Assembly: GCA_016779705.1 (NCBI GenBank)
Contig: JADHNB010000002.1
Coordinates: 1,017-65,016 of the forward strand
Direction of reading: 5' to 3'
Length of the DNA stretch: 64,000 nucleotides
DNA from: Poseidonia sp.
GTDB taxonomy: Archaea; Thermoplasmatota; Poseidoniia; Poseidoniales; Poseidoniaceae
Position numbers and translations under genes: made by a program. Of this stretch, positions 6,664 through 64,000 are shown one piece after another. Within the stretch, counting starts at the first letter, position 1. The number at the start of each line of letters is the position of its first letter. The notes under the pieces are model-generated. The model did not search any database. It had not been told where the DNA came from and was given only the letters and a program-made list of their open reading frames with translations.

Positions 6664-6669
6664 AAAAAG
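6664..6669 (-). terminator. Oligo-T tract immediately 3' of tRNA-Gly
   Basis: On the minus strand the tRNA is followed directly by CTTTTTGGG. Oligo-T runs are the usual archaeal termination signal. Confidence 0.45.
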
Positions 6670-6741
6670 TGCGAGCGCCGGGACTCGAACCCGGGTTCAG
6701 GCGTTGGCAACGCCCGGTGATAACCACTACACTACGCTCGC
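6670..6741 (-). tRNA. tRNA-Gly (anticodon GCC), 72 nt, CCA not encoded
   Basis: The reverse complement folds by hand into a cloverleaf. Acceptor GCGAGCG/CGCTCGC plus discriminator A. D arm GTGT-AGTGGTTA-TCAC. Anticodon stem GGGCG/CGCCT with loop TTGCCAA (U33, GCC at 34-36, A37). T arm CCGGG-TTCGAGT-CCCGG. Confidence 0.9.
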
Positions 6742-9800: not shown

Positions 9801-9937
9801 GCCTCGCTCCCCTCACCCATCCAATGGACGGTGATGTCAACCGTCACGGGGCCGGGGTGTTCAGCGACCACCGGGGCAAGGGAGGTCAACATGAGCACAC
9901 ACAACGCAGCCGCCAGCGCCCGACGCGAGGGATTCAT
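6857..9937 (-). CDS. Large secreted surface protein with C-terminal TM anchor (hypothetical)
   Basis: 1026 aa. Signal-peptide-like N-terminus MNPSRRALAAALCVLMLTSLAPVVAEH. Long Thr/Val/Gly/Asp-rich beta-type ectodomain with Ig-like segments near the C-terminus. Final helix WLYTVLGAVLVVGALVVLAIMW followed by RRQEGGG. Confidence 0.7.
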   Translation of the reverse strand: MNPSRRALAAALCVLMLTSLAPVVAEHPGPVTVDITVHWMGEGSEANAHAYLLTFGDNGTYGVDVLLDHRRNGSALSASHSLEWGSTGGVRTALVTFNTSLQWGDEIDVVVSVTQHDGVPVDVEAERHLLVGQWNQPMADHEVLLSTAWSLEQAYDNITGPQRFALAFTGQGWQERVGDVLHSSELGNGTFETLESTTDGQTDLALVLTQVWKNETIVAGILTHQVFDARGFGSLETVLVDGQTETVIQADVSQAVLNRSFAEGLIGERLLLEATGSLNVTEESDDNNSLAIDGELSVFFFEYVDSGGVRVLQHTQFEAMADFVLVDDGTRLDVSLDGFSSLDRWENGVRTEQLEELYGTGTFGFSDQDENASLQVNGTILDLHTKVEDGVTTIDDLHVDGVLTGDVQGSFGVVRGIETTGMQTNATGEAFLVNVIFQESWFNLTGINGGNFFGGAGLGATHNQTWDYQAVNADWDNRTVRLVWRETGPDASEGEEFPERSPIQQNATAPVSEEGLGDVTVGRETGLMPIPLATNDRLRLNDQEGLSLTIYAGERLTETRDGHNLAVIAWNGVYGGTGEAGSASGTLVSVGPLSGLLSGVERNVSLPFGSSNETVMLRETQHLERVLSPEIVSADNNTAPNIGTIELREGVVVGEGGSVAHLEVTVSDAEWNVVEVLVDASSFGAGQLVLNDRGLDGDQSVGDDVYSTTVVVTGLEVGAFPVTVTSTDSFGVTSQQEGAVTILNQGPRLLWVELAPGELERGQSLVVNARVYDGHGVESVRLDLRSFGGEMVNLTLTDGVWAAMVALPSGVSPGDQALTLVVEDTLGASNTFQTYIVAQGDIGDPVLGPHHVNVASLEPIVVRVLNDRPTITTTPTTVAKSLDEPIVYTVEVNDPDGIERVQISLGVYAPVGQTSWVTMHDDGQSGGDAEAGDGRYSVLLSVREGTPLGTHEVTVRSFDVFGEMNSASAAIVLVAEDEGGETPTSPGGWLYTVLGAVLVVGALVVLAIMWRRQEGGGDGHDRFGMQ

Positions 9938-12561: not shown

Positions 12562-12981
12562 ATGGGCATGACACTCGCAGAATTGACTCAAGCAATTCAA
12601 CAACACATTGATGAAAACATGGATACGGAAGTCGCCCAAGGCATGGCCGAGCATGCGCTCGGGTTCTTTGGATTCTACAACCGAATCATTGACAACGCCT
12701 TAGAACCGACGGACCGTAACCTGTTCTACATGTTCCAAGACTATGACTTGCTCACGACCGAATCCGAAGAGACCACCCTATGGGACGGTCGTGAATGGCG
12801 TATCCACTATTGGAAATTCAAGCCCGATCTTCGAGACCGAGTCGAAGCCTACATGCAACGAAACCTGCAAGATGAGGAAGCTGACCCCTTCGCCGACATT
12901 TATGCCGGTGACGGCGCCAGCATTTGGACCCGTGAAGGCGAGAAGGTGGCCAACCCGAACGCCTTCACCTCCGATTGGTGA
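12562..12981 (+). CDS. Hypothetical acidic cytoplasmic protein
   Basis: 139-aa ORF with the codon bias of its neighbours. No motif recognised. Ends ..NPNAFTSDW. Confidence 0.5.
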   Translation: MGMTLAELTQAIQQHIDENMDTEVAQGMAEHALGFFGFYNRIIDNALEPTDRNLFYMFQDYDLLTTESEETTLWDGREWRIHYWKFKPDLRDRVEAYMQRNLQDEEADPFADIYAGDGASIWTREGEKVANPNAFTSDW

Positions 12982-20494: not shown

Positions 20495-21310
20495 TCATTG
20501 AGCCCAATTGTCCATGCCTTTTTTCACAACTAGAGTTCGAGCGATGAGATCTTGGTTTGTTTGCTTATGGTCCGTCCATAGTTGTGCTAAATATCCGAAT
20601 CCAACGGTAAGAAGTATCAAAAAAATCAAACCATGTCGTTTGAGTGCCTGCTTCCTTGAAATTCTGTTTCCATCGTAGTCCGTAATAATCAACCCGAAGA
20701 TGCGTTTTCCTGGTGTTGCTTGCCATGATGAGGCGTTAAACAGAACAGGGTAAAATAGGCCAACCATGAGGAAAACCGCACCGAAAGAAATCCCAACGAG
20801 ACCCCCGAGTATACTTAGGATACTTATCAGCGATACATCGATCAAAAGAGCAGAGGTTCGTTGTACAAATCCTGCAAACCGTTCTCTTTCTTCACGAGAC
20901 CCCCCCACTCCCTTGTATACCATTTTATTTGGATATCCGAATTCATTGGCACCAAATTGGGTTCTTATCTTTCGTTCATGTGCTCGATTGTTTATTTCGT
21001 CCCAATCGATTTCAATACTTCCTTCTGAATATGAAACGATGCAATGTTGTACGAAACCGGAAAAATTAGGCATGGCTTTTGTGATGTCATTGAGTGTTTC
21101 GTCAATGGAAATTGTTTTCCTTTCTTTGGCCCCACTATCACCGTTACCCATCTTTGATTGATTGTTGATTTGCTCCCAATCAATTTCGATCTTTCCTTCT
21201 GAAAAATCGACGATGCAATGCTGTACGAAACCAGAAAAATTCGACATTTCTTTGGCGATATCATTTATGCTTGAATCAACAGAAATCGTCTTGTTTACCT
21301 TTTGGCTCAT
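20495..21310 (-). CDS. RDD-family membrane protein with an N-terminal tandem duplicated ~58-aa module (RHH-like)
   Basis: C-terminal half: FAGFVQRTSALLIDVSLISIL..ATPGKRIFGLIITDYDGNRIS..RTL, which is RDD-like with 3 TM helices. N-terminal half has two copies of KTIS(V/I)D..(I/L)NDI(A/T)K(E/A)M(S/P)NFSGFVQHCIV.(F/Y)SEG.IEIDW.(Q/E)INN. I chose the start at ATG 21310; the track start is 21379. Confidence 0.7.
   Translation of the reverse strand: MSQKVNKTISVDSSINDIAKEMSNFSGFVQHCIVDFSEGKIEIDWEQINNQSKMGNGDSGAKERKTISIDETLNDITKAMPNFSGFVQHCIVSYSEGSIEIDWDEINNRAHERKIRTQFGANEFGYPNKMVYKGVGGSREERERFAGFVQRTSALLIDVSLISILSILGGLVGISFGAVFLMVGLFYPVLFNASSWQATPGKRIFGLIITDYDGNRISRKQALKRHGLIFLILLTVGFGYLAQLWTDHKQTNQDLIARTLVVKKGMDNWAQ
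21001..21294 (-). repeat. Intragenic tandem duplication, period 174 bp (2 copies of ~120 bp)
   Basis: 21001..21120 and 21175..21294 align without gaps over most positions (e.g. cccaatc.atttc.at..ttccttctgaa.a....acgatgcaatg.tgtacgaaacc.gaaaaatt). Confidence 0.8.
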
Positions 21311-21396
21311 GATTTGCCATTGGGGAGTGATAATTAAGCATGGTTGCGTATGTATGGACGTAAGTATTGCAAATTTCATGTTGTCAAATCAACCGT

Positions 21397-37046: not shown

Positions 37047-40000
37047 ATGTTTGAACTGCCCCAAGGAAAACCCGTCAACGAACCCGTCTCGCTGGTGGAA
37101 GGCGAACTGCAAGCCTTTGCCCACGGAGCGATCTCAACCTACATCGGCCGTCGAAAAACCCCGGTTGGCCACCGCTTGGTGCGTGGCGGTCGCATCGTTG
37201 GATGGGTGGCCGAGGGGAAAGGCGCCAACGAAATCCTGGGAGGAAGCGAAGCCAGAACCGCCCTTGAGGCGCTTGAAGGCGAACAAAAAGCCCGCCACTT
37301 GGCCACGTCCTACACGTTGAACGGGCTGGGAAGTTTAGCCGAAGTGCTGCCCGAGGCGTTTGTTCACCAAGCCGACCGGCAAGGCCTCAAAGCCGCACAA
37401 AACACGGTCGAACGCTTGTTGGCACGAGACCTTTCAACGGTCATTCGTGAACTCAGTGCTCACCCAACGGTTCGTGGGGCCATGGCGGTTGATGCGGGCA
37501 TGCTCATCGACCATGCAGGTGACCTCCCCGGCTTGGGCCAGGAAGAATCTTTGGCGAGTGAAATCCATGAACTCCTTTCCAAAATGCGGCCCGAGACGTT
37601 GAGCGAAGAACTCGGCATGAAAGGCCACGGGCATTGGACCCTGCACAGTGGCGATGGTGCGTTGTTGCTGGCGCAAAGCGGAGAGATTTCCGTGGCCGTA
37701 TGGACCGAGAAAGACGCCAATCACGCCCGGTTGCTCGCAACGGCTTCCGTTGCTCTGGATGGCGAAGCCGTGGCTGCGGGATCTCACGGAACAAAACTTC
37801 CCGAGGGGTTCACGCTTCGCGAAGGTCGGGGCGGCCCCGACGCCGTGGTGTCAATGCTCAAAGCGGGTCTTGACGAAGACGTGACGGGGCACATCCAAGC
37901 CGGTTCCTCGAGCAAAGCCGTTTCGTTGATCTTGCAGCGGGGCGTTCCCGTCGCCCTTTGGGCTCCTTCGGAGGAGACCATGGAAGATGCGGTGATGGGT
38001 TTGACCGAGTCCAAACGGAAAGTCAAGCTTCTTCGATTCCCTGCGGGCACCATCGTGTCCAACAAGTCAGGGACGGTGGATGCCTTCTCGTTGAATGAAT
38101 TCACCCAACTTCTCGCCACCGTTCGTACGCGCTCAGAAGCACGTCAAGCCTCGCTCAAGGCACTTCTTGACGAATTGTTGGGCTTTGAGGCCGGGATTGA
38201 GTCCTTGAAGAAAGCCCGCTCCGGCATGACCTTTGCAGGAGGGAGCATGGAGGTCGCTGAGCCCCTTCCGTTGATGGGTGAACAAGCGGTCAGTGCCGTC
38301 GACGCAGGTTTGCGCCGTCGCCTTGAACAAGCCGAACAAACCATTGATGAACTCAACAAGCTCAATGCGGTGCTTGAAACTCAAGTGAAAGCCGTCGAAA
38401 AGAAGCGGGAAGCCGCCCAAATCGTTGCGAGAGAGGCGACGGAAACTCGGCAGGAAAACACGGTGGCGTTGGAGGACGCCCATGCAAAACTAAACTCAAT
38501 GCAAGTGGATTTGGCCCAAGCACGAAGTCAATCCGAAGAAGCCGAAGCTCGTGCCGAACGTCTGCTGCGTCGCGTGAACGAACTGGAGCATCAGGTGAGT
38601 GAGCGGGCCGCTGAACTTGCAAAAGCGGTTGGTGATGCGGCCAGCAGCGAAGCTCTCCACGAACTGATTGAATCGTTGGCCTTGAAAGAAGCGGAATTGC
38701 AAGCCAACTTGACCGAGGGAGCGCAACGGCTCAACAACATTCGTCAGCAGAGCGAGGACGAAGAGCGACGATTGCGCGTGCTCTCCGAGCAGGTCAACAC
38801 CACCCGAGAGCGCCACGCTCGCACGCAAGCCGACTTGTTGGCGCTGCAGGAACAAGTTCACCTCAACAACATGGAACTCGATGCGGTTCGTGCAGAAGAA
38901 AAGCAGGTTCGCCAACGAACCGACGAAGAACGCACGCGACGAGCGGAAGACGAAGCCCGTCGAGCCAACTTGCAAGCCGAACTTCGGGAATTGATGGACG
39001 AACGACGGACGTTGTTGCGAGAACTCGGTGACTTGGGAGCACGACGAGGCCACAGTGAAGCCGAATTGGCGTCGCTGGTTGACAAGGCGTCAGCCTTGGC
39101 CGAAGCGCATGAAGAAGCGCTCGCTGACATCCAAGAGGCCGAACGATTGCGGGCCCGACTCGCTGAGGAGCCGCTCGCTCAAGCCCTGCTTGACGACAAC
39201 AACACCTTCCAAGGGCTAGGCCCGGTGTTGGAACGCTTGGAACACGCCCGAAGCCTCGGCTATTCGGTGACGCTGCTGGACCGAGCGGTCGAGCGGGCGT
39301 TGCAGGTGATTCAATCCACCGTTGACCATGTCGCGGCCACACCCCGCCATCTCCTCTCTTCCGAGGTCATGACCCTGTTGGAGCGGCAAGTCCCCCAAAC
39401 GGCGGGAGCCGTCCGTGGATTGGCGCGGTGGTCGGTGCAACAACGTTTGGAGCACCAACTCGGGGAGACCGTCAACCATGTGGTCTTGGATTTGGAACAT
39501 CTCCTCGAGGATTTTGACCGGTCCATCACCATGTTGCGGCGAATTCGCAACGTTCTGGAACAGATCGAGCGGCTCGGAGCGCCAAGTCATGAGGTCCAAG
39601 CCCTGTTGGCCAATTGCCAGCGACCCGAGGCGCTGCCAAGCCTTGCCCAGGGAACACGACGCCTGATTCAAGTGGCTCTTGACGACATTTATTTGGAAGC
39701 CGACCAACGAGATGCGGGCGAAGCCATTGGACTGGAGGAAACCGCCCGAGTGCTTGAAGAGCTCATCACGCAACTCGACGCTTCGGGCTTGACCGACGGC
39801 CGACCTCGCGGCATGATGTGGGACTTCCAGCGTGACGGCTACCTTCCCTTTGAGCGGGAATCGGTGCCGACTGAACAGCGAATTCCCGTGAGTGAATCGA
39901 TGATGGAAGACTTGGAGTCCACGCTCATCAACGCCGAGGTGGTCTCGTCCATCGAGCCGAGCAACACCGCCCGTGTGGATGAAGAGGGGTGGAGTGAGTT

Positions 40001-40235
40001 GCCACCGCCCAACGACGAAGAAACGGAGGCCTTGGAGGTCAGCGGACGCGTCCTGACCTCAACCTCAGCCGTTGCCTCAATGGAAGATGAGCGAGCCGCC
40101 TTGGAAGCCGAATTGGCCCGATTGGACGCCGAACGGCACCATCGCTCGGTGACGGCCACGGTTCCCGCCGCCTCGACGCCTGCCGATGCCGCCCTAGCGT
40201 CCTTGGAATCCAAACTTTCCAACCTTGACTTCTAA
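37047..40235 (+). CDS. Giant cytoplasmic protein: DUF4388/PATAN-like plus internal Roadblock-like domain plus ~300-aa coiled coil plus helical and acidic C-terminal region
   Basis: 1062 aa. Residues ~15-100 (LVEGELQAFAHGAISTYIGRRKTPVGHRLVRGGRIVGWVAEG..GSEARTALEAL) and ~270-345 look DUF4388-like. Residues ~120-235 (VRGAMAVDAGMLIDHAGDL..HWTLHSGDGALLLAQSGE) look Roadblock-like. Residues ~420-740 are heptad-rich (E/A/R/L/Q). No P-loop found. Confidence 0.65.
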   Translation: MFELPQGKPVNEPVSLVEGELQAFAHGAISTYIGRRKTPVGHRLVRGGRIVGWVAEGKGANEILGGSEARTALEALEGEQKARHLATSYTLNGLGSLAEVLPEAFVHQADRQGLKAAQNTVERLLARDLSTVIRELSAHPTVRGAMAVDAGMLIDHAGDLPGLGQEESLASEIHELLSKMRPETLSEELGMKGHGHWTLHSGDGALLLAQSGEISVAVWTEKDANHARLLATASVALDGEAVAAGSHGTKLPEGFTLREGRGGPDAVVSMLKAGLDEDVTGHIQAGSSSKAVSLILQRGVPVALWAPSEETMEDAVMGLTESKRKVKLLRFPAGTIVSNKSGTVDAFSLNEFTQLLATVRTRSEARQASLKALLDELLGFEAGIESLKKARSGMTFAGGSMEVAEPLPLMGEQAVSAVDAGLRRRLEQAEQTIDELNKLNAVLETQVKAVEKKREAAQIVAREATETRQENTVALEDAHAKLNSMQVDLAQARSQSEEAEARAERLLRRVNELEHQVSERAAELAKAVGDAASSEALHELIESLALKEAELQANLTEGAQRLNNIRQQSEDEERRLRVLSEQVNTTRERHARTQADLLALQEQVHLNNMELDAVRAEEKQVRQRTDEERTRRAEDEARRANLQAELRELMDERRTLLRELGDLGARRGHSEAELASLVDKASALAEAHEEALADIQEAERLRARLAEEPLAQALLDDNNTFQGLGPVLERLEHARSLGYSVTLLDRAVERALQVIQSTVDHVAATPRHLLSSEVMTLLERQVPQTAGAVRGLARWSVQQRLEHQLGETVNHVVLDLEHLLEDFDRSITMLRRIRNVLEQIERLGAPSHEVQALLANCQRPEALPSLAQGTRRLIQVALDDIYLEADQRDAGEAIGLEETARVLEELITQLDASGLTDGRPRGMMWDFQRDGYLPFERESVPTEQRIPVSESMMEDLESTLINAEVVSSIEPSNTARVDEEGWSELPPPNDEETEALEVSGRVLTSTSAVASMEDERAALEAELARLDAERHHRSVTATVPAASTPADAALASLESKLSNLDF

Positions 40236-55460: not shown

Positions 55461-57449
55461 ATGAAGGAAAAAGTCCACCGAGGGGGTATGACACCCCGCC
55501 CGCAACTGACCGCTTTCACCTCCATCGCCATGGTTTTGCTGATGCTTTCCGTCGTGTCGTCACCCGTCCTGACCGCCTTGGATGAGTCTCCAAGCATTGT
55601 CCTCCCCGCTGAAGGGCGGCAAGATGGACTGGACGTGGATTGCAGTGGTTATTCCTTTGAAGACCTCTTTGAATACGACTTCGCGCTCTTTGAACTCGAC
55701 ATCCTTGACGATTGGGCCACCGGCGACATGTACGCCAATGCTTGGGTCAACGGGTCCAATTCCGCCATCGTTCGGGACAACCTCGACGGTTTGTTTGAGG
55801 GCCTGCCCGGGGGCGATAACGACTGGATCAGCACCGACGAGCGAGACGCCGTACGGAGCATCGGCCCCAAGTGCATCGCCGACATGGAAACTCGACTGGG
55901 TCTTCGAGAGGGCATCCCCCACTCTGGTGGAGTCGATTGGAACGATTTTGAATTCGTCGAGGACGGCATCGGATTGGACGAGGTGAACTTGGTCCCTCAA
56001 GGGCATGCTGACGCCCGTTCATGCACCAATTTTGGAGCGGCAGCGGATTGCAAAGAAGTGCCCACCACAACCACCGATGACATGGAAATCAGCCTTGCCG
56101 TGGCCGACGGCCAAACCCACAACGTGCGATGGGACCAATTGCCCAACAGCGGCGCCTCCAATTTCACCCTCGCGTTGAACATCACCAACATGAGCAACGC
56201 GGCCTTGCGAGTCACCTTCCCCGTTCTTCAGGGGCTACGAATGTACGACTTCAGGGTCACCCACAACGCCCCTGATGGGGGCCAATCCTGCGATTACATC
56301 GGCGAGCCCTCGTTCAGGTACCTCGGCGACGGTTCGTTGCAGGTCACCCAACTCGTGAGTTTTGACCGAACCCAATGGGATTTGGAATGCAACCTGTTCA
56401 TGGATTTCACCACGGAAGAACCCGCCACCAACGATGTCCCAGCGTGGACCGCCGATGCACCCGCCGACGGCACCAAGATCCCAACATCAGGTGCTGGAAC
56501 ATGGCAATTTGCGGAGGCCAGCACCGGAAACGGGTGGGCCACCGATGAAAACGGATGGGCCTTGAACTGTGCGTTCGACGAAGCCGGGTGGAGCGTCACC
56601 ACCAACGTGCTTGGCGACTTCTATGTCACGCAGCCCACGGGTTCGGTGCAATCAACCGCCGTCTGTCAAGCGGTGGACCCTTTGGGAGCCACCGACGAAA
56701 ACAACACCCGAACCTGGGTCTTTGGTACGCTCTACAGCGCCACCGGAGTGCTTGATGAAACGGGAAGCAGCGCGACGCTGACCGTCACGTCTGCGGGATT
56801 GGTGGACGAATTCATGTTTGAAGTGCGTGCCGCCCAAGGCACCAACCTCGGTGCCGCAGGGAACGCCGTAGCGGTGACGGGAACGGCCCCCACCGAAGTC
56901 GTCGTTTCTCTCGACAACCTGAGGCCCGGTTCCTTTTCCTTTGTCAGCCATGCAGAAGCGAACAACATGATGGCGTACAACGGCAACATCGATCTCGGCC
57001 TGAGCAAACCAAACGCCCCACCAACCCTCTCCGTGGCCGTGAACTTCAACGGTGAGAACGCCACCTGGGACGAAAGTCAACTCAAATTCAGCATGTACGG
57101 CCTGGTGTCCGACCCTGACCTCGAAGTGGTGACCATGCAACTCACCATCTGTGGAAGCAATTACCAAGGCTTTGACATCAACGGCATCAATTGGAACGTT
57201 GAAGTCTCCACGGCGATTTGCATGGCGAACGGGCTCACGGACTACGATGTGTTGATCAAAGCCACCGACGAATCCGGTGCCACCACCGAATTGGTGGTTG
57301 GTGTGAACGCTCCCGTGATCGATGACACGCCGGTGGCTCCTGATGAACCCGATAACGGTGGTGAAGAAGCGATTCCGGCAGCCTCCCTGTTGGCCACGAT
57401 GTGCATGCTTGGTGCTGCGGTTCTGCTCGGTCGGAAAACCGAGGAATGA
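55461..57449 (+). CDS. Secreted surface protein with C-terminal TM anchor (hypothetical)
   Basis: I chose the start at ATG 55461 (MKEKVHRGGMTPRPQLTAFTSIAMVLLMLSVVSSPVLTA, signal/anchor). Asp/Asn/Thr-rich ectodomain with a Ca-loop-like GGDNDWISTDERD. C-terminal helix LLATMCMLGAAVLLG followed by RKTEE. Confidence 0.7.
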   Translation: MKEKVHRGGMTPRPQLTAFTSIAMVLLMLSVVSSPVLTALDESPSIVLPAEGRQDGLDVDCSGYSFEDLFEYDFALFELDILDDWATGDMYANAWVNGSNSAIVRDNLDGLFEGLPGGDNDWISTDERDAVRSIGPKCIADMETRLGLREGIPHSGGVDWNDFEFVEDGIGLDEVNLVPQGHADARSCTNFGAAADCKEVPTTTTDDMEISLAVADGQTHNVRWDQLPNSGASNFTLALNITNMSNAALRVTFPVLQGLRMYDFRVTHNAPDGGQSCDYIGEPSFRYLGDGSLQVTQLVSFDRTQWDLECNLFMDFTTEEPATNDVPAWTADAPADGTKIPTSGAGTWQFAEASTGNGWATDENGWALNCAFDEAGWSVTTNVLGDFYVTQPTGSVQSTAVCQAVDPLGATDENNTRTWVFGTLYSATGVLDETGSSATLTVTSAGLVDEFMFEVRAAQGTNLGAAGNAVAVTGTAPTEVVVSLDNLRPGSFSFVSHAEANNMMAYNGNIDLGLSKPNAPPTLSVAVNFNGENATWDESQLKFSMYGLVSDPDLEVVTMQLTICGSNYQGFDINGINWNVEVSTAICMANGLTDYDVLIKATDESGATTELVVGVNAPVIDDTPVAPDEPDNGGEEAIPAASLLATMCMLGAAVLLGRKTEE

Positions 57450-57497
57450 ACCGACACAACCAAAAAGACCCGTCAGCAGGAATCGATAGGTCTCACC

Positions 57498-58598
57498 ATG
57501 TTTACAGGAACCGTCGAATCGCAGAGCCACGAAGGAGGCCTGCTGGTTCACTTCGAAGGCACCTCACCAGCCTTGAACGCCATCATGGTGCGTTCCGATG
57601 ATGGAACCTACATTGGAAAAGTCGACGGCGTGATCGGCAACACCAACCACCCGCTGGCTCACATCGCCCATGTTGACCGAAACTTGGACATGGACGCCTT
57701 GATAGGCGTGCAAGTGACGGTGCGAGCAAAAAAACCGCGTAGCGACGACCGCTCAAATCAACGACGGGAGGACCGTGGGCGCTTCGATGACCGCCGAAAC
57801 AACCGGGATCGAAACGGTGGAGGTGACCGCCGATTCGGAAGCGGAAGAGATGACCGCCGAAACAACCGGGACCGAAACGCTGGAGGTGACCGAAGATTCG
57901 GAAACGGAAGGGATGACCGAAGGTCAGGCTTCCAGCGCAACGATCGAAGCTCAGGCAACGACCAGTTCAACAACGATTGGACGTGCCCGGCTTGCAACAA
58001 CTCCAATTTCGCTCGCCGAACGGCTTGCAACCGATGTGAGGCCCCACGCCCAGCAGGAACCGGTCAACCCTCCGGACAGCGCCGTGAGCGTGCCGAGGGC
58101 CGATTTAACCAACGAGGCGATGACCGTCCTCGATTCGATCGCTCCAATCAAGGACGCCGAAACGACCGACAAGGCTCCCAAAACGGGACCTTCAACTCCA
58201 ACGACTGGACCTGCCCTGCTTGCAAGAACTCCAATTTCTCCTTCCGAGATGCCTGCAATCGATGCGAAGCTCCTCGGCCCGGCGGGCGGGGTGGTGGGCA
58301 ACGCCAGGACCGGGGACGAGACGGTGGACAACGCCAGGACCGGGGACGAGACGGTGGACAACGCCAGGACCGGGAACGAGACGGAGGACAACGCCAGGAC
58401 CGGGGACGAGACGGTGGACAACATCAGGACCGGGGGCGAAGGGATGACCGACGCTCACCCCCCTCAAACGACCGCCGCCCTACGAACAATCAAGACGGTT
58501 TCCGACGAGCAAAAGGCAAGCGCTCCGGACACGCCCACAACCAACCCCCCAGAGATTTCCGAGAACCACGTAAATTTGAACGCCGCAGCGATGATTGA
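57498..58598 (+). CDS. Gar1-like beta-barrel fused to Arg/Asp/Gly-rich repeats and two RanBP2-type zinc fingers (putative RNA-binding protein)
   Basis: N-terminus: TGTVESQSHEGGLLVHFEGTSPALNAIMVRSDDGTYIGKVDGVIGNTNHPLAHI (Gar1/Naf1-like pattern). ZnF1 WTCPACNNSNFARRTACNRC (57978..58037) and ZnF2 WTCPACKNSNFSFRDACNRC (58206..58265) both match W-x-C-x2-C-x3-N-x6-C-x2-C exactly. Confidence 0.7.
   Translation: MFTGTVESQSHEGGLLVHFEGTSPALNAIMVRSDDGTYIGKVDGVIGNTNHPLAHIAHVDRNLDMDALIGVQVTVRAKKPRSDDRSNQRREDRGRFDDRRNNRDRNGGGDRRFGSGRDDRRNNRDRNAGGDRRFGNGRDDRRSGFQRNDRSSGNDQFNNDWTCPACNNSNFARRTACNRCEAPRPAGTGQPSGQRRERAEGRFNQRGDDRPRFDRSNQGRRNDRQGSQNGTFNSNDWTCPACKNSNFSFRDACNRCEAPRPGGRGGGQRQDRGRDGGQRQDRGRDGGQRQDRERDGGQRQDRGRDGGQHQDRGRRDDRRSPPSNDRRPTNNQDGFRRAKGKRSGHAHNQPPRDFREPRKFERRSDD
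57786..57925 (+). repeat. 63-bp in-frame tandem repeat, ~2.2 copies (DDRRNNRDRN.GGDRRFG.GR)
   Basis: Units start at 57786, 57849 and 57912 (partial), with a few substitutions between copies. Confidence 0.85.
58301..58440 (+). repeat. 30-bp in-frame tandem repeat, ~4.6 copies (GGQRQDRGRD)
   Basis: The unit acgccaggaccggggacgagacggtggaca occurs at 58301, 58331, 58361 (2 mismatches), 58391 and 58421 (degenerate). Confidence 0.9.
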
Positions 58599-58601
58599 GG
58601 A

Positions 58602-59651
58602 ATGCCCATGAGTGCCGAGTCGCATTACCTCAACGCGCTCGAGGCCTTGGACAACGGCGACCGAGACACCGCTAAATCCGAAGCGAAGAAGGCCACTCGC
58701 CTCGATGCCGACCACCTTGAAGCATGGTCGGTGTATGTCGAAGCATGCCTGCCATCACACGGTGCGCAGCCCACGATGAGTGAAGCGGCAAGCGCTCTTT
58801 CCGGTGCCAAACGCATCGTGGCTGCAGACCCGACTCGCCTTGACATGTGGTTGCGAGGAGGCCGCTTGATGGCTGACGACCTCGGCATGCTCCACGACGC
58901 CCTCCATTGGTGGCAGGCGTGTCGAGAACACCTCCCCGGGGAAGTCACCCCCGTGGTGGAAATGGCCTCCATCCTGGCGGACATGGGCGAATACAGTGAA
59001 GCTCAGCAACGCCTCCAGTCCATTCTTGACGACAACATGGACGTCGGTATCACACAATTCCGGAAAATCAACGGCCTCTTGCAACTGGTAAGGGTGGCCG
59101 CCACGCAAGATGAACGTGAAATTTTCAAACCCTACGAAAAGCACCACGACGGTTGGGGGGCCATCCGACAAAAAATGCGCAAACCGCCCATGTCGGAATC
59201 GTTCATTTTCCTCACCACGGCCGTACCGGTGCTCCTCTTGGTCATCCTTCTGCTTGGGCGATACAGCGCACCAACCTGGTCAGCGGTGTGCCTCAACACC
59301 CTGGTCATCATGATGGTGATCTTGGTGCTGATGCGCAACGCCAAGCGATGGTTCCAGCTCTTCAACCGCCCGGCGTTTAACCTCTTACGGGCCATGAATT
59401 TCGAAGCGGCGACGGGCTACGTCGTCATCGATGAGGACGTCCGTACCTCGGTCCTCTACATGTACATCATGCAACGCAAACCGCTTTCTTGGCAGGAACG
59501 CATGCTGAAGATCATCGACAAGGCCTCCCCACTCCCAAAGAATTGGCGCTTGAGGCTCCCCGATTTTGATTCCCATTTGGAGGCAGAGGATGCCGAGCCA
59601 ACCTTTTGGAAAAAAGGAAACGAGGCGTTACCTGCCTACGAGGAAGAATGA
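58602..59651 (+). CDS. TPR-like N-terminal domain plus two-TM protein (hypothetical)
   Basis: 349 aa. It starts 3 nt after the stop of the Gar1-like gene. Helical-repeat N-terminus, with TM helices FIFLTTAVPVLLLVILLLG and VCLNTLVIMMVILVLM. Confidence 0.55.
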   Translation: MPMSAESHYLNALEALDNGDRDTAKSEAKKATRLDADHLEAWSVYVEACLPSHGAQPTMSEAASALSGAKRIVAADPTRLDMWLRGGRLMADDLGMLHDALHWWQACREHLPGEVTPVVEMASILADMGEYSEAQQRLQSILDDNMDVGITQFRKINGLLQLVRVAATQDEREIFKPYEKHHDGWGAIRQKMRKPPMSESFIFLTTAVPVLLLVILLLGRYSAPTWSAVCLNTLVIMMVILVLMRNAKRWFQLFNRPAFNLLRAMNFEAATGYVVIDEDVRTSVLYMYIMQRKPLSWQERMLKIIDKASPLPKNWRLRLPDFDSHLEAEDAEPTFWKKGNEALPAYEEE

Positions 59652-60060: not shown

Positions 60061-63000
60061 TTATTGCTGGGATTGGGCGTATTGAATGGCGTATTGTTGA
60101 GCATAGGCTGCTGCCGTGGCCGCATCGTAACCCTGAGAGACAAACTGGTTGTAGTATTGCTCGTACACGGCTTGGTCAAAGGCGGCGGCCGGTTGAGCCG
60201 CAGGCTGTGTGGCAGCCGGTTGAGCCGCAGCAGCGGGTTGCGCTGCTGCACCTGCAACGTATTGGGCTGCGAAGGCTCTGGCCGTATCCTCAGGATAGCC
60301 TTGGGCGATGAGTTGCTGGACGTATTGCTCGGTTGGGTCAAGAGCATCAGCTCCAAAGCCACCCTCCATGCCGCCGAAGGCGTCTTCCTTCTCGCCACCC
60401 TTTCGCATGAACACCAAGGTGGCGCCAATGACCACGAGCAACAGAATGACACCAGCGATCAACATCACCGGGTCCAAACCTGCTTCGGTTGAATCACCAC
60501 CGTCGGTGGTTTGGGTGTTGTCCTTCCAAACACCCGTGGTTGGATCATAGGACCACGCACCGTTCCACTGGCAGTCGCCGTTAGCATCGAGGACGAACTC
60601 ACCACCAGCGGCTTCCGCTTGTGGGTCCGCTTCCAGGCCTTGACAGGCTGGCAAATTCAATTCAATCCACTTGATGGTCACCCAGCGCTCGTCATCCCCT
60701 TCGTAATACTTGATGTACACACGCTGAGAGGTTGACTTGTTGGTGTAGAAACTGTCCACGTTGAGCGTGATTTCGAAGCGGTCGTTGTCACCCAAGGCAT
60801 CGCTTCGGCCCCACAGCCCTTGCGTGCTCATGTTGTACTTCATCACGGGTGAAGCGGAGAAGTCTTCTTCAAAGAACGCAGCCTCAACATAGACCTCGCT
60901 CGTTTCAGCACCCGACAAGACCGTTCCGGAGATGGTGATGGTGTCGGCATCAAACTTGGACTCGTTCAAATTCACGTTGTCCCACTGGATGGCGGGTTCT
61001 TCGTCACCAAAGCCCTCTGGCACGATGACGAAGTACATTCGGTGCTTTTCGGAGAACTTACCAGCGCTGTCGTAAACGACCAATTCCATACGGATTTGGT
61101 TCGTCGTCGTACCCGTTGAATCCACGGTGACGTTCTTGAATTTGTACGACCACATGCCGCCGCTTGCAGCGCTCTGCGTGAACGTGTGACCATCGAGGTC
61201 GAACGTATCATCGCCGTAGGGGGCGTCGAACAACACCTTCCATTCGTACGTCTCAATGCCGTTACCGTCGAGGGCATCGGCGTCCGAGGAGTTGCTGGCA
61301 TCGAAGTGGATGACCAACTCGGCGTCGGGCCCGTCGCCTTGGAGCGTGATTTGATACACGTCCCACTCGACGTTGGAAACGGTCTTGGTCCCGGTGAATT
61401 CCACGTTGTCTTGGTAGTCGGTTCGGATGTCGATGGTGGCGTCGGCCTCAGGGCGGAACTCGTCGGCGTAAACGTCGTTGGTCTCGACCGTGACATCAAT
61501 CGTGCGAGCGTGCCCGTTCTCGTCGTGGAGCATCAGCGTGATGTGCCATTGTTCGCCTTGGGCACAGCCGGTTTGCGAAGCCAGGTCAGCCTTACAGAAC
61601 ATCATGCTGGGGGCGCCTTCCGTCGTGTGACCCGTCAAACCGCTGGCGAGGCTGCTGCCGTCCCAGTTGGTCGGTCCGTCGATGATCCAATCCGTTTGAA
61701 GCGTTTCCGTGGTTGTGGTGGTAAAACCGAACTCCAAGGTCGCATCGCTCTTCATGTAGCGCAGAGCGTACTTGCCGGTGCTTGGGTCAATGCCAGGAAC
61801 TTCGCCGTTGATGGTGATGTCCAAACCGTTGCCCAGCGTACCGAAGCCGTCGGGGTACGGCGTCACTTGGTATTGCAACAGGTTGCCCAAAAGCGGGAAG
61901 GTGGTGCTGTCAGCGCGCTCGGAGTGCGTGGCCACGTCGATGGTTGAGATGATCATGCCACCGGAGTAGTAACTGCACACACCGAGCACGGTGTCTTGAA
62001 TGTCTTCGCTGGAGCGAATGAGTCGCTGGAAGTAACCGCCGTCCTCCATGTAACCGTCGCAGGTTTCGGGGACGTTGTTGGTGCTGACCGACTTGGTGTT
62101 CAACACGGCTTGGGCAACACCGGAGCTGGCGTCAAAGCCCTGGAAGGCGTTGACATCGATGTTGTCCATCACCGGATGGTAGGGGTCAGCCAGATCCATG
62201 GTGGAGTAGGTCACTTGGGTTTCGGCCGTGTCACGGCTTTGAATGTCCAAGCCGAAGGGCAGACGACCGGCCAATCCTTGGTCAAGGCCGTAGATTTGGC
62301 TGCCAAGCGGACCGAGGTGAGCCTGCACCGTACCGCCGGCGGACATGAAGTTCTCCAGCACGGTTCGGCGTGCGGGTTCACCCAAGTACTGGTAGTAGCC
62401 ATCGCCACCGAACTGGGTGTCCTTGGCCACCAATTGCTCTTGCCAGGGCAGGATGATCTTGTCGTAATGGGTGAACCATCCAGCGTCGAAGTAGGTGTCC
62501 CAGTCGTTGATTTCAAATTGGGTGTACGTCATGTTGAGAATGGCCAGGTCCTGCTTGATGGCGGTGGTTCGCGACGAGGTGTCCGAGAGGATGGCCACGT
62601 CGACCATGTCGGCAAAGGTGGCGTGGAAGTAACGCTCGTTACCGGTTTCACTGCCGTCAGAAAGGCGACCGTAGAAACTGATGTTGTAGGTGTGGCCGTC
62701 CATCCAGCCGTTCCAAGGCGTGAACGAAACGTCCGTCTTTTGCTGGCTCTCAAGCGAAACAGCGGGTCCAGAATCCACGAGATGGGCTTGGATTCCGTCG
62801 GCCAGGTCGGTCACTTCCATGTAGAAGATGTAATCACCGCCGAGCACACCGTTGGTGGCTTGGAATTCCCACGAATGGGTCAGCGCACTGTCGATGGGCA
62901 GAACGCACGGCAAGGTTTGGTCGGCGTGACAGGTCAACGTGTCGGGCTTCCCGATGGAGATGTCAACCGATTCGACGTTGAAGATGACACGCTCGATGTT

Positions 63001-64000
63001 GTTGGCCGTGGACAACTCGTTGTCGTTGTACCAAGGCTTACCCATCGTGGTGTTGTCAAACACGGTCTTGACGTCAAGTCGATAGACACCCGAAACGAAC
63101 TCGTGGCTGGCGATGGTCGACAGGGCGGCCTGTTCAGCGTCCACGTTCGTTCGAGAGGTGGAGTAGGTGGCGTCCTGCACGAAGGTGTACTCTTGGAGCG
63201 AGATGTTGTTGAAACCAACGCCTTTGAACCCGTCGTTGATGCCGTTGCGTCCGTCATCATCGGATTGGAATTCAAAGTGGACATCAACGGTCGAACCCTG
63301 GAGCGACATGCACTCAGCCCGCCATTGCGTCGAATCCGAAGAGGACCGGTTGAGCACGTACAAGTGGGTTAGGTCGATGCTGGTGGTCTTGACGAGTTCC
63401 TCGGTGTTGAAGAACACGTTGTAGTTGCCCGTGCCGTCGGTGTTGGCAGGGTCCCCGATGAATTGCAGTTCGGTCTGGTCAATGGACTCCGTGGCGTTGA
63501 CAATGCCGTTGCCGTCGTCGTCGTTCTGACAAGTGCCGTCTTCGTTGTAATCGTTCCATTGAGCGTAGACCAGGCCGGTGTAATCCGTGCCGTCCTTGGC
63601 GTAATCCACGGTCATGACGGCGTAATCGCTGGGGTCAACGTTGCCGTTTTGGTCAATGGTGTAGAAGGTGTCAGCGTAGTATTCGAAGTTGAGGGATACG
63701 AAGTCACCGCTCATGCTCGTCAAATCAATGTCGGGAATGGTGAGGGTTTCGTTGGCCCAAGCGTCATCGTACCCGTTGGTGCCGGTGTCACAAGGATGAC
63801 CGAACCAGTAAGCGTTGTTGTTGAAGATTTTCGTTGAACAGGAGTTCTCGTTGTAAATGGCGCCCTTGGGCTGTTGGTTCTCTTCGTAACGGTAACCCTG
63901 AGTGCCTCCTTCAAAGGTCTCCTCGCAGACGGCCGATGGGGTTCCACAGTACACGTCGGAAGGCGTGGCGGAAAACACCGTGGCTTCGATGTCAAAGTCG
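60061..64000 (-). CDS. Giant surface protein (more than 1310 aa, N-terminus beyond the right window edge) with a C-terminal TM anchor and a Q/A/Y-rich cytoplasmic tail
   Basis: The reading frame remains open upstream of the track start (the GTG at 63978 is internal: ..DFDIEATVFSATPSDVY). Asp/Asn/Thr/Gly-rich beta-type ectodomain. TM helix VMLIAGVILLLVVIGATLVFM. 114-aa tail with a duplicated motif. Confidence 0.75.
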   Translation of the reverse strand, partial: DFDIEATVFSATPSDVYCGTPSAVCEETFEGGTQGYRYEENQQPKGAIYNENSCSTKIFNNNAYWFGHPCDTGTNGYDDAWANETLTIPDIDLTSMSGDFVSLNFEYYADTFYTIDQNGNVDPSDYAVMTVDYAKDGTDYTGLVYAQWNDYNEDGTCQNDDDGNGIVNATESIDQTELQFIGDPANTDGTGNYNVFFNTEELVKTTSIDLTHLYVLNRSSSDSTQWRAECMSLQGSTVDVHFEFQSDDDGRNGINDGFKGVGFNNISLQEYTFVQDATYSTSRTNVDAEQAALSTIASHEFVSGVYRLDVKTVFDNTTMGKPWYNDNELSTANNIERVIFNVESVDISIGKPDTLTCHADQTLPCVLPIDSALTHSWEFQATNGVLGGDYIFYMEVTDLADGIQAHLVDSGPAVSLESQQKTDVSFTPWNGWMDGHTYNISFYGRLSDGSETGNERYFHATFADMVDVAILSDTSSRTTAIKQDLAILNMTYTQFEINDWDTYFDAGWFTHYDKIILPWQEQLVAKDTQFGGDGYYQYLGEPARRTVLENFMSAGGTVQAHLGPLGSQIYGLDQGLAGRLPFGLDIQSRDTAETQVTYSTMDLADPYHPVMDNIDVNAFQGFDASSGVAQAVLNTKSVSTNNVPETCDGYMEDGGYFQRLIRSSEDIQDTVLGVCSYYSGGMIISTIDVATHSERADSTTFPLLGNLLQYQVTPYPDGFGTLGNGLDITINGEVPGIDPSTGKYALRYMKSDATLEFGFTTTTTETLQTDWIIDGPTNWDGSSLASGLTGHTTEGAPSMMFCKADLASQTGCAQGEQWHITLMLHDENGHARTIDVTVETNDVYADEFRPEADATIDIRTDYQDNVEFTGTKTVSNVEWDVYQITLQGDGPDAELVIHFDASNSSDADALDGNGIETYEWKVLFDAPYGDDTFDLDGHTFTQSAASGGMWSYKFKNVTVDSTGTTTNQIRMELVVYDSAGKFSEKHRMYFVIVPEGFGDEEPAIQWDNVNLNESKFDADTITISGTVLSGAETSEVYVEAAFFEEDFSASPVMKYNMSTQGLWGRSDALGDNDRFEITLNVDSFYTNKSTSQRVYIKYYEGDDERWVTIKWIELNLPACQGLEADPQAEAAGGEFVLDANGDCQWNGAWSYDPTTGVWKDNTQTTDGGDSTEAGLDPVMLIAGVILLLVVIGATLVFMRKGGEKEDAFGGMEGGFGADALDPTEQYVQQLIAQGYPEDTARAFAAQYVAGAAAQPAAAAQPAATQPAAQPAAAFDQAVYEQYYNQFVSQGYDAATAAAYAQQYAIQYAQSQQ

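What the first reader, a model, noticed from the sequence alone, without database searches (positions are those of the whole stretch)
57498..58598. Archaeal Gar1-like barrel fused to RG/RD-rich repeats and two canonical RanBP2-type zinc fingers
The 366-aa product combines three elements.
- An N-terminal ~85-aa segment resembles the Gar1/Naf1 beta-barrel of H/ACA RNPs: G-x-V......GGLLV......P.LN..V......YIGKVDGVIG....PLAHI.
- There are Arg/Asp/Gly-rich low-complexity tracts: DDRRNNRDRNGGGDRRFGSGR x2 and GGQRQDRGRD x~5.
- Two segments match the RanBP2 zinc-finger consensus W-x-C-x2-C-x3-N-x6-C-x2-C exactly.

Archaeal Gar1 proteins are normally short and lack GAR tails. RanBP2 fingers are overwhelmingly eukaryotic and bind ssRNA in ZRANB2 and FUS/EWS/TAF15. 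The alternation RG-rich / ZnF / RG-rich / ZnF / RG-rich mirrors eukaryotic Gar1 GAR domains and the RGG-ZnF-RGG layout of FET proteins.

No cbf5, nop10 or L7Ae gene is adjacent. The protein could therefore be a moonlighting or new type of RNA-binding, possibly condensate-forming, factor rather than the canonical H/ACA subunit. It appears co-transcribed with a TPR-plus-TM protein that starts 3 nt downstream.
Basis: partly seen in the sequence, partly recalled or inferred. Interest (0 to 1): 0.8.

Follow-up and report, generated by a model that had tools for sequence, protein, structure and literature searches.

The report
Archaeal Gar1 with RNA-binding zinc-finger tail
A marine archaeon's version of Gar1, a small subunit of the RNA-guided pseudouridine machinery, carries a long flexible arginine-rich tail with two zinc fingers of the kind that eukaryotic splicing and FUS-type proteins use to grip single-stranded RNA; this build is shared across Marine Group II archaea but I found no paper on it.

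Summary
ORF 57498..58598 (+) encodes 366 aa with these parts:
- a Gar1-fold beta-barrel (aa 1-84)
- three disordered Arg/Asp/Gly/Asn-rich linkers built partly from DNA tandem repeats
- two RanBP2-type zinc fingers (aa 158-186 and 234-262)

Pfam Gar1 is below threshold. A family profile nevertheless hits Pyrococcus Gar1 (E 1e-4), and the AlphaFold model (pLDDT 92) superposes on it (TM 0.74/0.82, rmsd 1.7-2.0 Å). The fingers belong to the ssRNA-binding ZRANB2/FUS class, and every GGU-contact position is invariant in the family.

The gene sits at a conserved locus (surface protein – gar1 – TPR/TM protein) throughout Poseidoniales. Some Thalassarchaeaceae encode only the barrel plus a basic tail; one such short form was checked and sits at the same locus. 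I therefore read this as the lineage's own Gar1 that gained an RNA-binding tail, not as a separate moonlighting factor.

Whether a second, short gar1 exists elsewhere in these genomes could not be checked. IMG auto-annotates some members as "Gar1/Zn-ribbon protein". Verdict: new variant of a known kind, moderately interesting.

The parts
57498..58598 (+). Complete gene, 366 aa plus stop. It is identical to NCBI 'hypothetical protein ISP84_00570 [Candidatus Poseidonia sp.]'.
   Evidence: P0018, 100% identity
57498..57749 (+). Gar1-type six-stranded beta-barrel, aa 1-84
   Evidence: AF2 pLDDT 92. Foldseek best hits are Pfu Gar1 2ey4/2hvy, TM 0.74/0.82, rmsd 1.7-2.0 Å. Family profile against PDB Gar1 gives E 9.6e-5. 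40 of 43 family members hit Pfam Gar1 below threshold.
57750..57968 (+). Disordered linker 1, aa 85-157. It is Arg/Asp/Asn/Gly-rich and includes a 63-bp x 2.1 tandem repeat at 57786-57919 (DDRRNNRDRNGGGDRRFGSGR x2).
   Evidence: (pLDDT <50 for aa 91-155)
57969..58055 (+). RanBP2-type zinc finger 1, aa 158-186, ZRANB2-like: NNDWTCPACNNSNFARRTACNRCEAPRPA
   Evidence: Pfam PF00641. PDB hits ZRANB2 2k1p/3g9y and 1n0z. pLDDT 93-95. Foldseek 3g9y_A TMt 0.88, 52% identity. Positions D160, N168, F171, R174 and N178 are invariant in the family alignment; R173 matches ZRANB2 R19 but is not invariant.
58056..58196 (+). Disordered linker 2, aa 187-233
   Evidence: (pLDDT <50 for aa 188-231)
58197..58283 (+). 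RanBP2-type zinc finger 2, aa 234-262, FUS/EWS-like: SNDWTCPACKNSNFSFRDACNRCEAPRPG
   Evidence: Best PDB hit is the FUS ZnF 6g99_B, E 2e-6. pLDDT 94-95. Positions D236, N244, F247, R250 and N254 are invariant; F249 is at least 90% conserved.
58284..58496 (+). Disordered linker 3, aa 263-333. It includes a 30-bp x 4.9 tandem repeat at 58293-58439 (GGQRQDRGRD x5).
58497..58556 (+). Conserved C-terminal motif, aa 334-353: GFRRAKGKRSGHAHNQPPRD. Family consensus is [FY]R[RK][AS][RK]GKxxGHAHNxxP, about 22 aa from the C-terminus. Its function is unknown.
   Evidence: Present in 90 of 121 full-length members. R336, G340, G344, H345, A346, H347, N348 and P351 are invariant. No PDB match.
57450..57497 (+). 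48-nt intergenic region upstream of the gene. Its DNA sequence is conserved across Poseidonia-genus loci (ACCGACAmmACCAAAArG ... GCAGG ... AGGyCT ... ATG). It is a candidate promoter or 5' leader.
   Evidence: window plus L010-L044
58602..59651 (+). Downstream gene, 349 aa. It has N-terminal TPR repeats, a hydrophobic segment around aa 195-256 and a C-terminal domain. It starts 3 nt after the gar1 stop and is a conserved neighbour in both families (MGIIa and MGIIb).
   Evidence: 30% identity, E 8e-41, to the Thalassarchaeaceae neighbour
55461..57449 (+). Upstream gene, about 660 aa, a predicted surface or membrane-anchored protein. The exact start codon is uncertain. It is a conserved upstream neighbour, and in the two MGIIb-type loci examined (L007, L009) its stop overlaps the gar1 start (ATGA).
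   Evidence: (28% identity, E 7e-62)

Best explanation
This is the Gar1 subunit of the box H/ACA pseudouridylation RNP of a Candidatus Poseidonia (Marine Group IIa) archaeon. It carries a lineage-specific C-terminal RNA-binding extension.

Shown here:
- The N-terminal 84 residues are a Gar1 barrel.
- The remaining 282 residues are three disordered, net-positive Arg/Asp/Gly/Asn linkers.
- Two folded RanBP2 zinc fingers are strung on these linkers. All positions that contact GGU in ZRANB2 and FUS are conserved in them.
- A conserved terminal GHAHN motif closes the protein.
- Barrel, fingers and terminal motif are invariant across the family, while linker length and repeat number vary freely.

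Inferred:
- The barrel docks on the catalytic domain and thumb loop of Cbf5, as in the Pyrococcus and yeast complexes, and controls substrate loading and product release.
- The fingers act as GGU/GGN-specific single-strand clamps on flexible tethers. The Arg-rich linkers add non-specific backbone contacts, as RGG2 does for the FUS finger.
- Together they would capture or hold substrate RNA (pre-rRNA, tRNA) near the active site, or anchor the RNP on nascent rRNA.

Functionally this would be an independent archaeal counterpart of the RGG/GAR tails of eukaryotic Gar1. Those tails modulate substrate interaction and turnover.
For: Gar1 identity:
- Family profile against the PDB: P. furiosus Gar1 E 9.6e-5, four Pfu constructs, then yeast and human GAR1.
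- AF2 model pLDDT 92.
- The top 13 Foldseek PDB hits are all Gar1/Naf1, with Gar1 ahead of Naf1.
- 40 of 43 diverse members hit Pfam Gar1.
- JGI names members 'rRNA processing protein Gar1', and NCBI names one fragment 'H/ACA ribonucleoprotein complex subunit GAR1/NAF1'.

Orthology:
- One conserved locus (surface protein - gar1 - TPR/TM) in MGIIa and MGIIb.
- Forms of only barrel plus basic tail, 150-167 aa, exist in Thalassarchaeaceae and related members. The one checked (L009) lies at that locus.
- The exhaustive profile search of 1.84 billion representative proteins returned 119 proteins. Those I inspected were N-terminal-barrel members of this family or obvious weak, spurious matches, and none looked like a paralogue.

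Fingers:
- PF00641 at 63 bits.
- The best PDB relatives are the RNA-binding fingers of FUS (2e-6), ZRANB2 (8e-5) and RBM10 (1e-3). These rank ahead of the ubiquitin- or Ran-binding fingers of TAB2 and Nup153.
- Foldseek matches ZRANB2 ZnF2 bound to AGGUAA, TMt 0.88, 52% identity.
- The RNA-contact positions D4, N14, aromatic-17, R19, R20 and N24 defined in PMC6384913 correspond to D160, N168, F171, R173, R174, N178 in finger 1 and D236, N244, F247, F249, R250, N254 in finger 2. D4, N14, aromatic-17, R20 and N24 are invariant in both fingers over 46 full-length members. Position 19 varies between Arg and Phe.

Order and disorder map.

Literature analogies:
- FUS ZnF plus flanking RGG2 (PMC12344763).
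- Effects of the Gar1 RGG domains on substrate interaction and turnover (PMC8096250).
- Archaeal Gar1 normally lacks such regions (PMC7991803).
Against: - The Pfam and NCBIfam Gar1 models are not reached at their curated cut-offs, so the barrel is divergent.
- Association with Cbf5 is untested.
- I could not search a whole Poseidoniales genome. A second, short canonical gar1, or loss of cbf5, cannot be excluded.
- The gene sits in a same-strand run with a surface protein and a TPR/membrane protein. This offers no RNA-related context.
- The linkers are 13% Asp with almost no RGG, so they are not GAR domains in the strict sense.
- GGU binding is inferred from conserved residues only.
Confidence: 0.62

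Rival explanations
1. A Gar1-like paralogue that is not the catalytic-cycle subunit. It could be a Naf1-like assembly or escort factor, or an alternative subunit. It would occupy the Gar1 site on Cbf5, or bind a different partner, while a separate short Gar1 serves the mature H/ACA RNP.
For: - The barrel is divergent and sub-threshold for Pfam and NCBIfam Gar1.
- Naf1 domains are among the structural hits (2v3m, TM 0.61-0.66).
- There are no H/ACA partner genes in the 64-kb window.
- Whole genomes could not be searched.
Against: - Gar1 chains outrank Naf1 in both sequence and structure searches.
- The short barrel-plus-basic-tail form that was checked (L009) lies at the same locus and looks like ordinary archaeal Gar1.
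- The exhaustive profile search gave no second class of barrel proteins.
- From my own knowledge, Naf1 is known only in eukaryotes.
Confidence: 0.2
2. A free-standing RNA chaperone or condensate scaffold unrelated to pseudouridylation. The mixed-charge Arg/Asp linkers and multivalent fingers would drive RNA-dependent phase separation, and the barrel would be merely an oligomerisation or partner-binding module.
For: - About 75% of the protein is predicted disordered.
- The composition is multivalent, with 1-5 fingers per protein in the family.
- Repeat turnover is rapid.
- RGG domains of eukaryotic GAR1 are linked to phase separation (PMC8096250 introduction).
Against: - The barrel is the most conserved part and is specifically Gar1-like.
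- Condensate formation is compatible with, not alternative to, an H/ACA role.
- There is no direct evidence for phase separation.
Confidence: 0.12
3. The fingers are protein-binding modules, like the ubiquitin-binding NZF fingers or the Ran-binding fingers, and recognise a ubiquitin-like SAMP/Urm1 modifier or another protein rather than RNA.
For: The RanBP2/NZF fold is shared by ubiquitin- and Ran-binding fingers. These appear as weaker PDB hits: TAB2 0.012, Nup153 0.038, RNF31 and TRABID above 0.5.
Against: - From my own knowledge, the NZF signature is Thr-Phe directly after the second Cys. It is absent here (CNNSNF and CKNSNF).
- The RNA-contact residues are invariant or conservatively substituted instead.
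- The best matches are RNA-bound fingers.
Confidence: 0.04

Closest known systems
Archaeal Gar1 (H/ACA sRNP subunit; P. furiosus Gar1, PDB 2EY4/2HVY/3HAY)
   Same: - N-terminal six-stranded barrel of the same fold (TM 0.74/0.82, rmsd 1.7-2.0 Å, 22-23% identity).
- Shared motif pattern: P-x-L ... G-x-V-x-x-V-x-G-(4)-P-x-x-x-I.
- A basic segment follows directly after the barrel.
   Different: - 366 aa instead of about 75-105 aa.
- The tail carries two RanBP2 zinc fingers, three long disordered repeat-bearing linkers and a conserved GHAHN motif.
- It falls below the curated HMM thresholds.
Eukaryotic Gar1/GAR1 with flanking GAR (RGG) domains
   Same: A Gar1 core plus Arg/Gly-containing disordered extensions that plausibly contact RNA. 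This is an accessory RNA-binding tail on the one H/ACA protein that does not touch the guide RNA (PMC7991803, PMC8096250).
   Different: - The extension is only C-terminal.
- It is mixed-charge Arg/Asp/Asn/Gly with one RGG, rather than RGG/FGG repeats.
- It contains folded zinc fingers, which eukaryotic Gar1 lacks.
- It was presumably acquired independently.
ZRANB2 (ZNF265) and the FET proteins FUS/EWS/TAF15: RanBP2-type ssRNA-binding zinc fingers
   Same: - Finger consensus and fold.
- The GGU-contact set D4/N14/aromatic-17/R19(or aromatic)/R20/N24.
- Tandem fingers on flexible linkers, as in ZRANB2.
- A finger flanked by Arg-rich disorder, as in FUS RGG2-ZnF-RGG3 (PMC6384913, PMC12344763).
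   Different: - No RRM, RS or prion-like domain.
- The host is an archaeon.
- The fingers are fused to an H/ACA RNP subunit.
- RNA binding is not demonstrated.
Naf1 (eukaryotic H/ACA assembly factor with a Gar1-like domain, PDB 2V3M)
   Same: A Gar1-fold barrel embedded in a much longer, largely disordered protein.
   Different: - Weaker structural match than Gar1 itself (TM 0.61-0.66).
- Naf1 has no zinc fingers.
- From my own knowledge, it is not known in archaea.

Membership tests
Gar1/Naf1 (Pfam PF04410; H/ACA RNP subunit) | Six-stranded Gar1 beta-barrel fold | tested here: met
   AF2 pLDDT 92. Foldseek top 13 hits are Gar1/Naf1, best Pfu Gar1 at TM 0.74/0.82 and rmsd 1.7-2.0 Å.
Gar1/Naf1 (Pfam PF04410; H/ACA RNP subunit) | Sequence match to the curated family model at its gathering score | tested here: not met
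   PF04410 scores 14.3 bits on the full length and 18.4 bits on aa 1-84, against a cut-off of 29.3. NF009631 scores 13.6 bits. Homology is still supported by the family profile against Pfu Gar1 (E 9.6e-5) and by 40 of 43 members hitting PF04410 as the top family.
Gar1/Naf1 (Pfam PF04410; H/ACA RNP subunit) | Binds the catalytic domain and thumb loop of Cbf5 | not testable with these tools
   No complex prediction or Cbf5 sequence from this genome was available.
Gar1/Naf1 (Pfam PF04410; H/ACA RNP subunit) | It is the genome's Gar1 orthologue, co-occurring with cbf5, nop10 and L7Ae | tested here: inconclusive
   The locus is conserved across Poseidoniales, and the short canonical-like form that was checked (L009) lies at it. 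No paralogue appeared in the exhaustive search. Whole genomes could not be searched. No partner genes lie in the window.
RanBP2-type zinc finger (Pfam PF00641) | W-x-C-x2-4-C-x3-N-x6-C-x2-C spacing and a score above the gathering cut-off | tested here: met
   Two exact matches. 63.3 bits against a cut-off of 27.
RanBP2-type zinc finger (Pfam PF00641) | Two-hairpin zinc-ribbon fold of RanBP2 fingers | tested here: met
   pLDDT 93-95 for both fingers. Foldseek 3g9y_A TMt 0.88, rmsd 1.9 Å over 29 residues, and 6g99 FUS ZnF.
ssRNA-binding subclass (ZRANB2, FUS/EWS/TAF15, RBM5/10) | RNA-contact residues D4, N14, aromatic-17, R19 (or aromatic), R20 and N24 | tested here: met
   ZnF1 has D160, N168, F171, R173, R174, N178. 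ZnF2 has D236, N244, F247, F249, R250, N254. All but position 19 are invariant in 46 sequences. The logo over 290 fingers agrees. Positions are taken from PMC6384913.
ssRNA-binding subclass (ZRANB2, FUS/EWS/TAF15, RBM5/10) | Binds GGU/GGN single-stranded RNA | not testable with these tools
   Needs EMSA, SELEX or NMR.
NZF ubiquitin-binding subclass (Npl4, TAB2/3, HOIL-1) | Thr-Phe dipeptide after the second Cys plus a distal hydrophobic residue | tested here: not met
   The fingers read C-N-N-S-N-F and C-K-N-S-N-F. The signature itself is recalled from my own knowledge.
GAR / RGG domain (eukaryotic Gar1, fibrillarin, nucleolin) | Dense clusters of RGG/RG repeats, Gly-Arg dominated | tested here: not met
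   One RGG and 17 RG/GR dipeptides in 282 residues, with 13% Asp and 10% Asn. Some relatives are more RGG-like.

The most novel reading that the evidence does not exclude
Marine Group II archaea independently evolved a eukaryote-style, multivalent RNA-binding tail on an H/ACA RNP protein. The tail combines ZRANB2/FET-class GGU-reading zinc fingers with mixed-charge disorder. It would tether the pseudouridylation machinery to nascent rRNA or assemble a nucleolus-like RNP condensate in a prokaryote. The fingers themselves would record either gene flow from planktonic eukaryotes into archaea or an archaeal root for the RNA-binding RanBP2 finger class.
Probability: 0.2. Interest if true: 0.8.

Novelty: new variant of a known kind. 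Interest (0 to 1): 0.58.

Why it matters
Reviews state that archaeal Gar1 proteins are minimal and lack the RNA-binding GAR tails of eukaryotes (PMC7991803, PMC8096250). Here, across the Poseidoniales genomes sampled (a group described as the most abundant planktonic archaea of the surface ocean, PMC6461757), Gar1 carries a long tail. That tail contains sequence-specific ssRNA fingers otherwise studied almost only in eukaryotic splicing and FET proteins.

If the protein sits in the H/ACA RNP, three things follow:
- It gives a natural, simpler system for asking what accessory RNA-binding tails on Gar1 do, a role described as elusive in eukaryotic H/ACA RNPs (PMC8096250).
- It predicts GGU-dependent substrate recruitment.
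- It offers a test case for disorder-plus-finger RNA recognition, and possibly condensate formation, in archaea.

It also matters for annotation. Most database entries call it 'hypothetical' or 'zinc finger protein'. About a quarter of the species-representative loci examined break inside the repeats, so the gene is often truncated.

Tried and rejected
- A shallow 9-sequence profile (A1) against the PDB gave no Gar1 hit. Only the broader profile A3 did.
I used the single N-domain sequence instead, which reaches only Poseidoniaceae.
- The exhaustive profile search did not reach canonical Gar1 of other archaea at E <= 1e-3. It therefore says nothing about a distant paralogue.
- A profile of the C-terminal GHAHN motif against the PDB gave only a chance 9-residue match to a transposase. 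Its function remains unexplained.
- Rfam and tRNA scans of the window found only tRNA-Gly and no H/ACA sRNA family.
- I looked for published Gar1 residues at the Cbf5 interface to test their conservation. The papers I opened list only Cbf5 thumb-loop mutants.
- Literature searches pairing Gar1 with Poseidoniales/MGII/Thermoplasmatota, and RanBP2 fingers with archaea, found nothing on this fusion.
- I considered an assembly chimera and rejected it. The same architecture recurs in more than 290 clusters from independent assemblies and in 36 of 37 complete genes from species-representative genomes.
- The overlapping ORFs 57775..58611 (+) and 57951..58424 (-) are shadow frames of the repeat region. 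Homologues conserve only the annotated frame.
- One homologous-protein search was left unused. A word-indexed search with the only canonical Gar1 sequence I had (Pyrococcus) could not have found a divergent Poseidoniales paralogue.
Full report
**What is there.** It is identical to an NCBI entry, 'hypothetical protein ISP84_00570 [Candidatus Poseidonia sp.]', from a 66-kb MAG contig. The window has 58% G+C. The ORFs I scanned against Pfam encode ordinary housekeeping proteins: Hsp70, thermosome, CTP synthase, ThrRS, Cdc48, SdhAB, ATCase and others. The RanBP2 spacing pattern occurs exactly twice in the six-frame translation of the whole window, both times in this ORF, and never in 50 shuffles. 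The two peptide repeat families correspond to DNA tandem repeats of 63 bp x 2.1 and 30 bp x 4.9.

**The N-terminal domain is a Gar1 barrel.** Single-sequence HMM evidence is weak. Pfam Gar1 gives 14-18 bits against a cut-off of 29.3, and NCBIfam Gar1 gives E 0.059. A shallow profile found nothing in the PDB. I then collected relatives and built a 43-sequence profile of the domain (A3).
- The best PDB matches of this profile are four constructs of P. furiosus Gar1 (E 9.6e-5 to 9e-4), followed by yeast Gar1 at 0.024. A 2025 GAR1 entry, an insect H/ACA subunit and human GAR1 follow more weakly, among unrelated chance hits.
- 40 of 43 members hit Pfam Gar1 as their leading family.
- AlphaFold2 with this alignment gives a six-stranded barrel at pLDDT 92.
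- The top 13 Foldseek PDB hits are all Gar1 or Naf1. P. furiosus Gar1 is best (TM 0.74/0.82, rmsd 1.7-2.0 Å) and Naf1 is weaker.

**The fingers are genuine RanBP2 fingers of the RNA-binding class.** PF00641 scores 63 bits. The nearest solved relatives are the FUS finger (E 2e-6, to finger 2), both ZRANB2 fingers (about 1e-4, to finger 1) and RBM10. These rank ahead of the ubiquitin- or Ran-binding fingers of TAB2 and Nup153. In the full-length model both fingers reach pLDDT 93-95. One finger superposes on ZRANB2 ZnF2 bound to AGGUAA (TMt 0.88, 52% identity), and the FUS finger bound to UGGUG also appears among the hits.

PMC6384913 defines the RNA-contact positions as D4, N14, aromatic-17, R19, R20 and N24. 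It shows that fingers keeping them read GGU/GGN, and that FUS and EWS tolerate an aromatic residue at position 19.
- Finger 1 has D160, N168, F171, R173, R174, N178.
- Finger 2 has D236, N244, F247, F249, R250, N254.

Positions 4, 14, 17, 20 and 24 are invariant in both fingers across 46 full-length relatives. Position 19 alternates between Arg and Phe. A logo over 290 family fingers gives the same picture. The Thr-Phe signature of ubiquitin-binding NZF fingers, recalled from my own knowledge, is absent.

**The rest of the protein.** The full-length model is ordered only in the barrel and the two fingers. Residues 91-155, 188-231 and 265-335 have pLDDT below 50. The tail is 24.5% Arg, 14% Gly, 13% Asp and 10% Asn, with net charge +29 and a single RGG. 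It is therefore a mixed-charge Arg-rich disordered region rather than a classical GAR domain. It is present in 90 of 121 full-length members and has eight invariant positions. It has no match in the PDB and its role is unexplained.

**Distribution and evolution.**
- The full-length search found 293 clusters at 90% identity. The best 120 listed are 200-511 aa (most full-length members 300-510 aa) and nearly all carry PF00641. Where sources give a taxon, the labels are Poseidonia, Poseidoniaceae, Poseidoniales or generic 'Euryarchaeota/Thermoplasmatota' names, apart from one 'Candidatus Woesearchaeota archaeon' entry.
- Finger number ranges from 1 to 5, mostly 2-3.
- A scan of GTDB species-representative genomes found 50 loci. 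Of 37 complete genes (243-442 aa, median 355), 36 have at least one finger. In 13 of 50 loci the contig ends inside the gene, which explains the many 'partial' entries.
- The exhaustive HMMER search of 1.84 billion representatives returned only 119 proteins, so the family is narrow.
- Its more distant members include Thalassarchaeaceae (MGIIb) proteins of 204 aa with a single divergent zinc ribbon. They also include forms of 150-167 aa that are just barrel plus a basic Arg/Lys/Gly tail. The latter is the canonical archaeal Gar1 layout, only somewhat longer.
- The gene order 'about 660-aa surface protein - gar1 - about 340-aa TPR/membrane protein' is conserved in the MGIIa loci examined. It is also conserved in a Thalassarchaeaceae locus (L007) and in the locus of a short form (L009), with demonstrably orthologous flanks (E 7e-62 and 8e-41).
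- In L007 and L009 the gar1 start overlaps the upstream stop.
- In the Poseidonia genus a 48-nt intergenic sequence is itself conserved.

**Interpretation.** The simplest reading is one ancestral Poseidoniales gar1 gene whose basic tail was elaborated by repeat expansion and by insertion and duplication of zinc fingers. I therefore consider this the lineage's Gar1 and not a separate factor (confidence about 0.6). By homology the barrel should bind Cbf5 and gate its thumb loop (PMC7991803, PMC4551948). The tail would add sequence-specific (GGU) and non-specific RNA contacts, as shown for the FUS finger with RGG2 (PMC12344763). This is functionally analogous to the RGG tails of eukaryotic Gar1, which influence substrate interaction and turnover (PMC8096250). 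Reviews state that archaeal Gar1 lacks such regions (PMC7991803), so this is an exception.

**What remains open.**
- Whether a second, short gar1 exists elsewhere in these genomes.
- Whether the protein binds Cbf5.
- Whether the fingers bind GGU.
- What the GHAHN motif does.
- Whether the conserved adjacency to a surface protein and a TPR/membrane protein means anything beyond conserved gene order.

**Novelty.** No paper in the searchable library links Gar1 to Poseidoniales/MGII or describes a Gar1-RanBP2 fusion. Automated annotation has partly seen it: IMG labels some members 'rRNA processing protein Gar1/predicted nucleic-acid-binding Zn-ribbon protein', while NCBI uses 'zinc finger protein' or 'hypothetical protein'. 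I rate it a new variant of a known kind, of moderate interest.

Noticed in passing
window 57450-57497; L010-L044 upstream of position 3001: The 48-nt intergenic region before the gene is conserved at the DNA level across the Poseidonia genus (ACCGACAmmACCAAAArG ... GCAGG ... AGGyCT ... ATG). Other MGIIa genera have only about 22 nt with GGATGT, and the MGIIb-type loci L007 and L009 overlap the upstream stop (ATGA). It could be a promoter or 5' leader.
   Followed up: partly
window 58497-58556 (aa 334-353): A conserved C-terminal motif, [FY]R[RK][AS][RK]GKxxGHAHNxxP, is present in 90 of 121 full-length relatives. It has no match in the PDB or Pfam, and its function is unknown.
   Followed up: partly
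L010-L059: 13 of 50 species-representative contigs end inside this gene. Long-read assemblies (L001, L009) show frameshifts in it. The repeats break assemblies and produce many 'partial' or split database entries.
   Followed up: yes
window 20495-21379 (-): An RDD-family membrane protein gene has third-position G+C of 0.38, against about 0.65-0.75 for neighbouring genes. It may be a recent acquisition.
   Followed up: no
L031, L037, L041 (MAG RS440, PBUZ01): One MAG carries three different copies of the gene on three contigs (75-82% identity to the query N-domain). This is more likely a mixed-population bin than true paralogues.
   Followed up: no
L023 (NZEQ01000076.1): A contig binned as 'Verrucomicrobiales bacterium' carries a full 388-aa copy of this archaeal gene. 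The contig is probably mis-binned.
   Followed up: no
window 12562-12978 (+): A full-length DUF6015 protein (257 bits) of unknown function lies between an arginase-family gene and two peptidase genes.
   Followed up: no
window 55461-57449 (+), 60061-63978 (-), 6857-9937 (-), 37047-40235 (+): There are several very large predicted surface or secreted proteins with no Pfam hit. The one upstream of gar1 is conserved across Poseidoniales (28% identity to the MGIIb orthologue).
   Followed up: partly
L007 8001-8615 (Thalassarchaeaceae, GCA_011523055.1): The MGIIb orthologue (204 aa) has one divergent finger, W-x-C-x2-C-x3-N-x5-C-x2-C. It lacks the Asp and Arg RNA-contact residues and has no PF00641 hit on record.
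   Followed up: partly
window 6669-6741 (-): tRNA-Gly(GCC) is the only Rfam or ARAGORN RNA hit in the window.
   Followed up: yes
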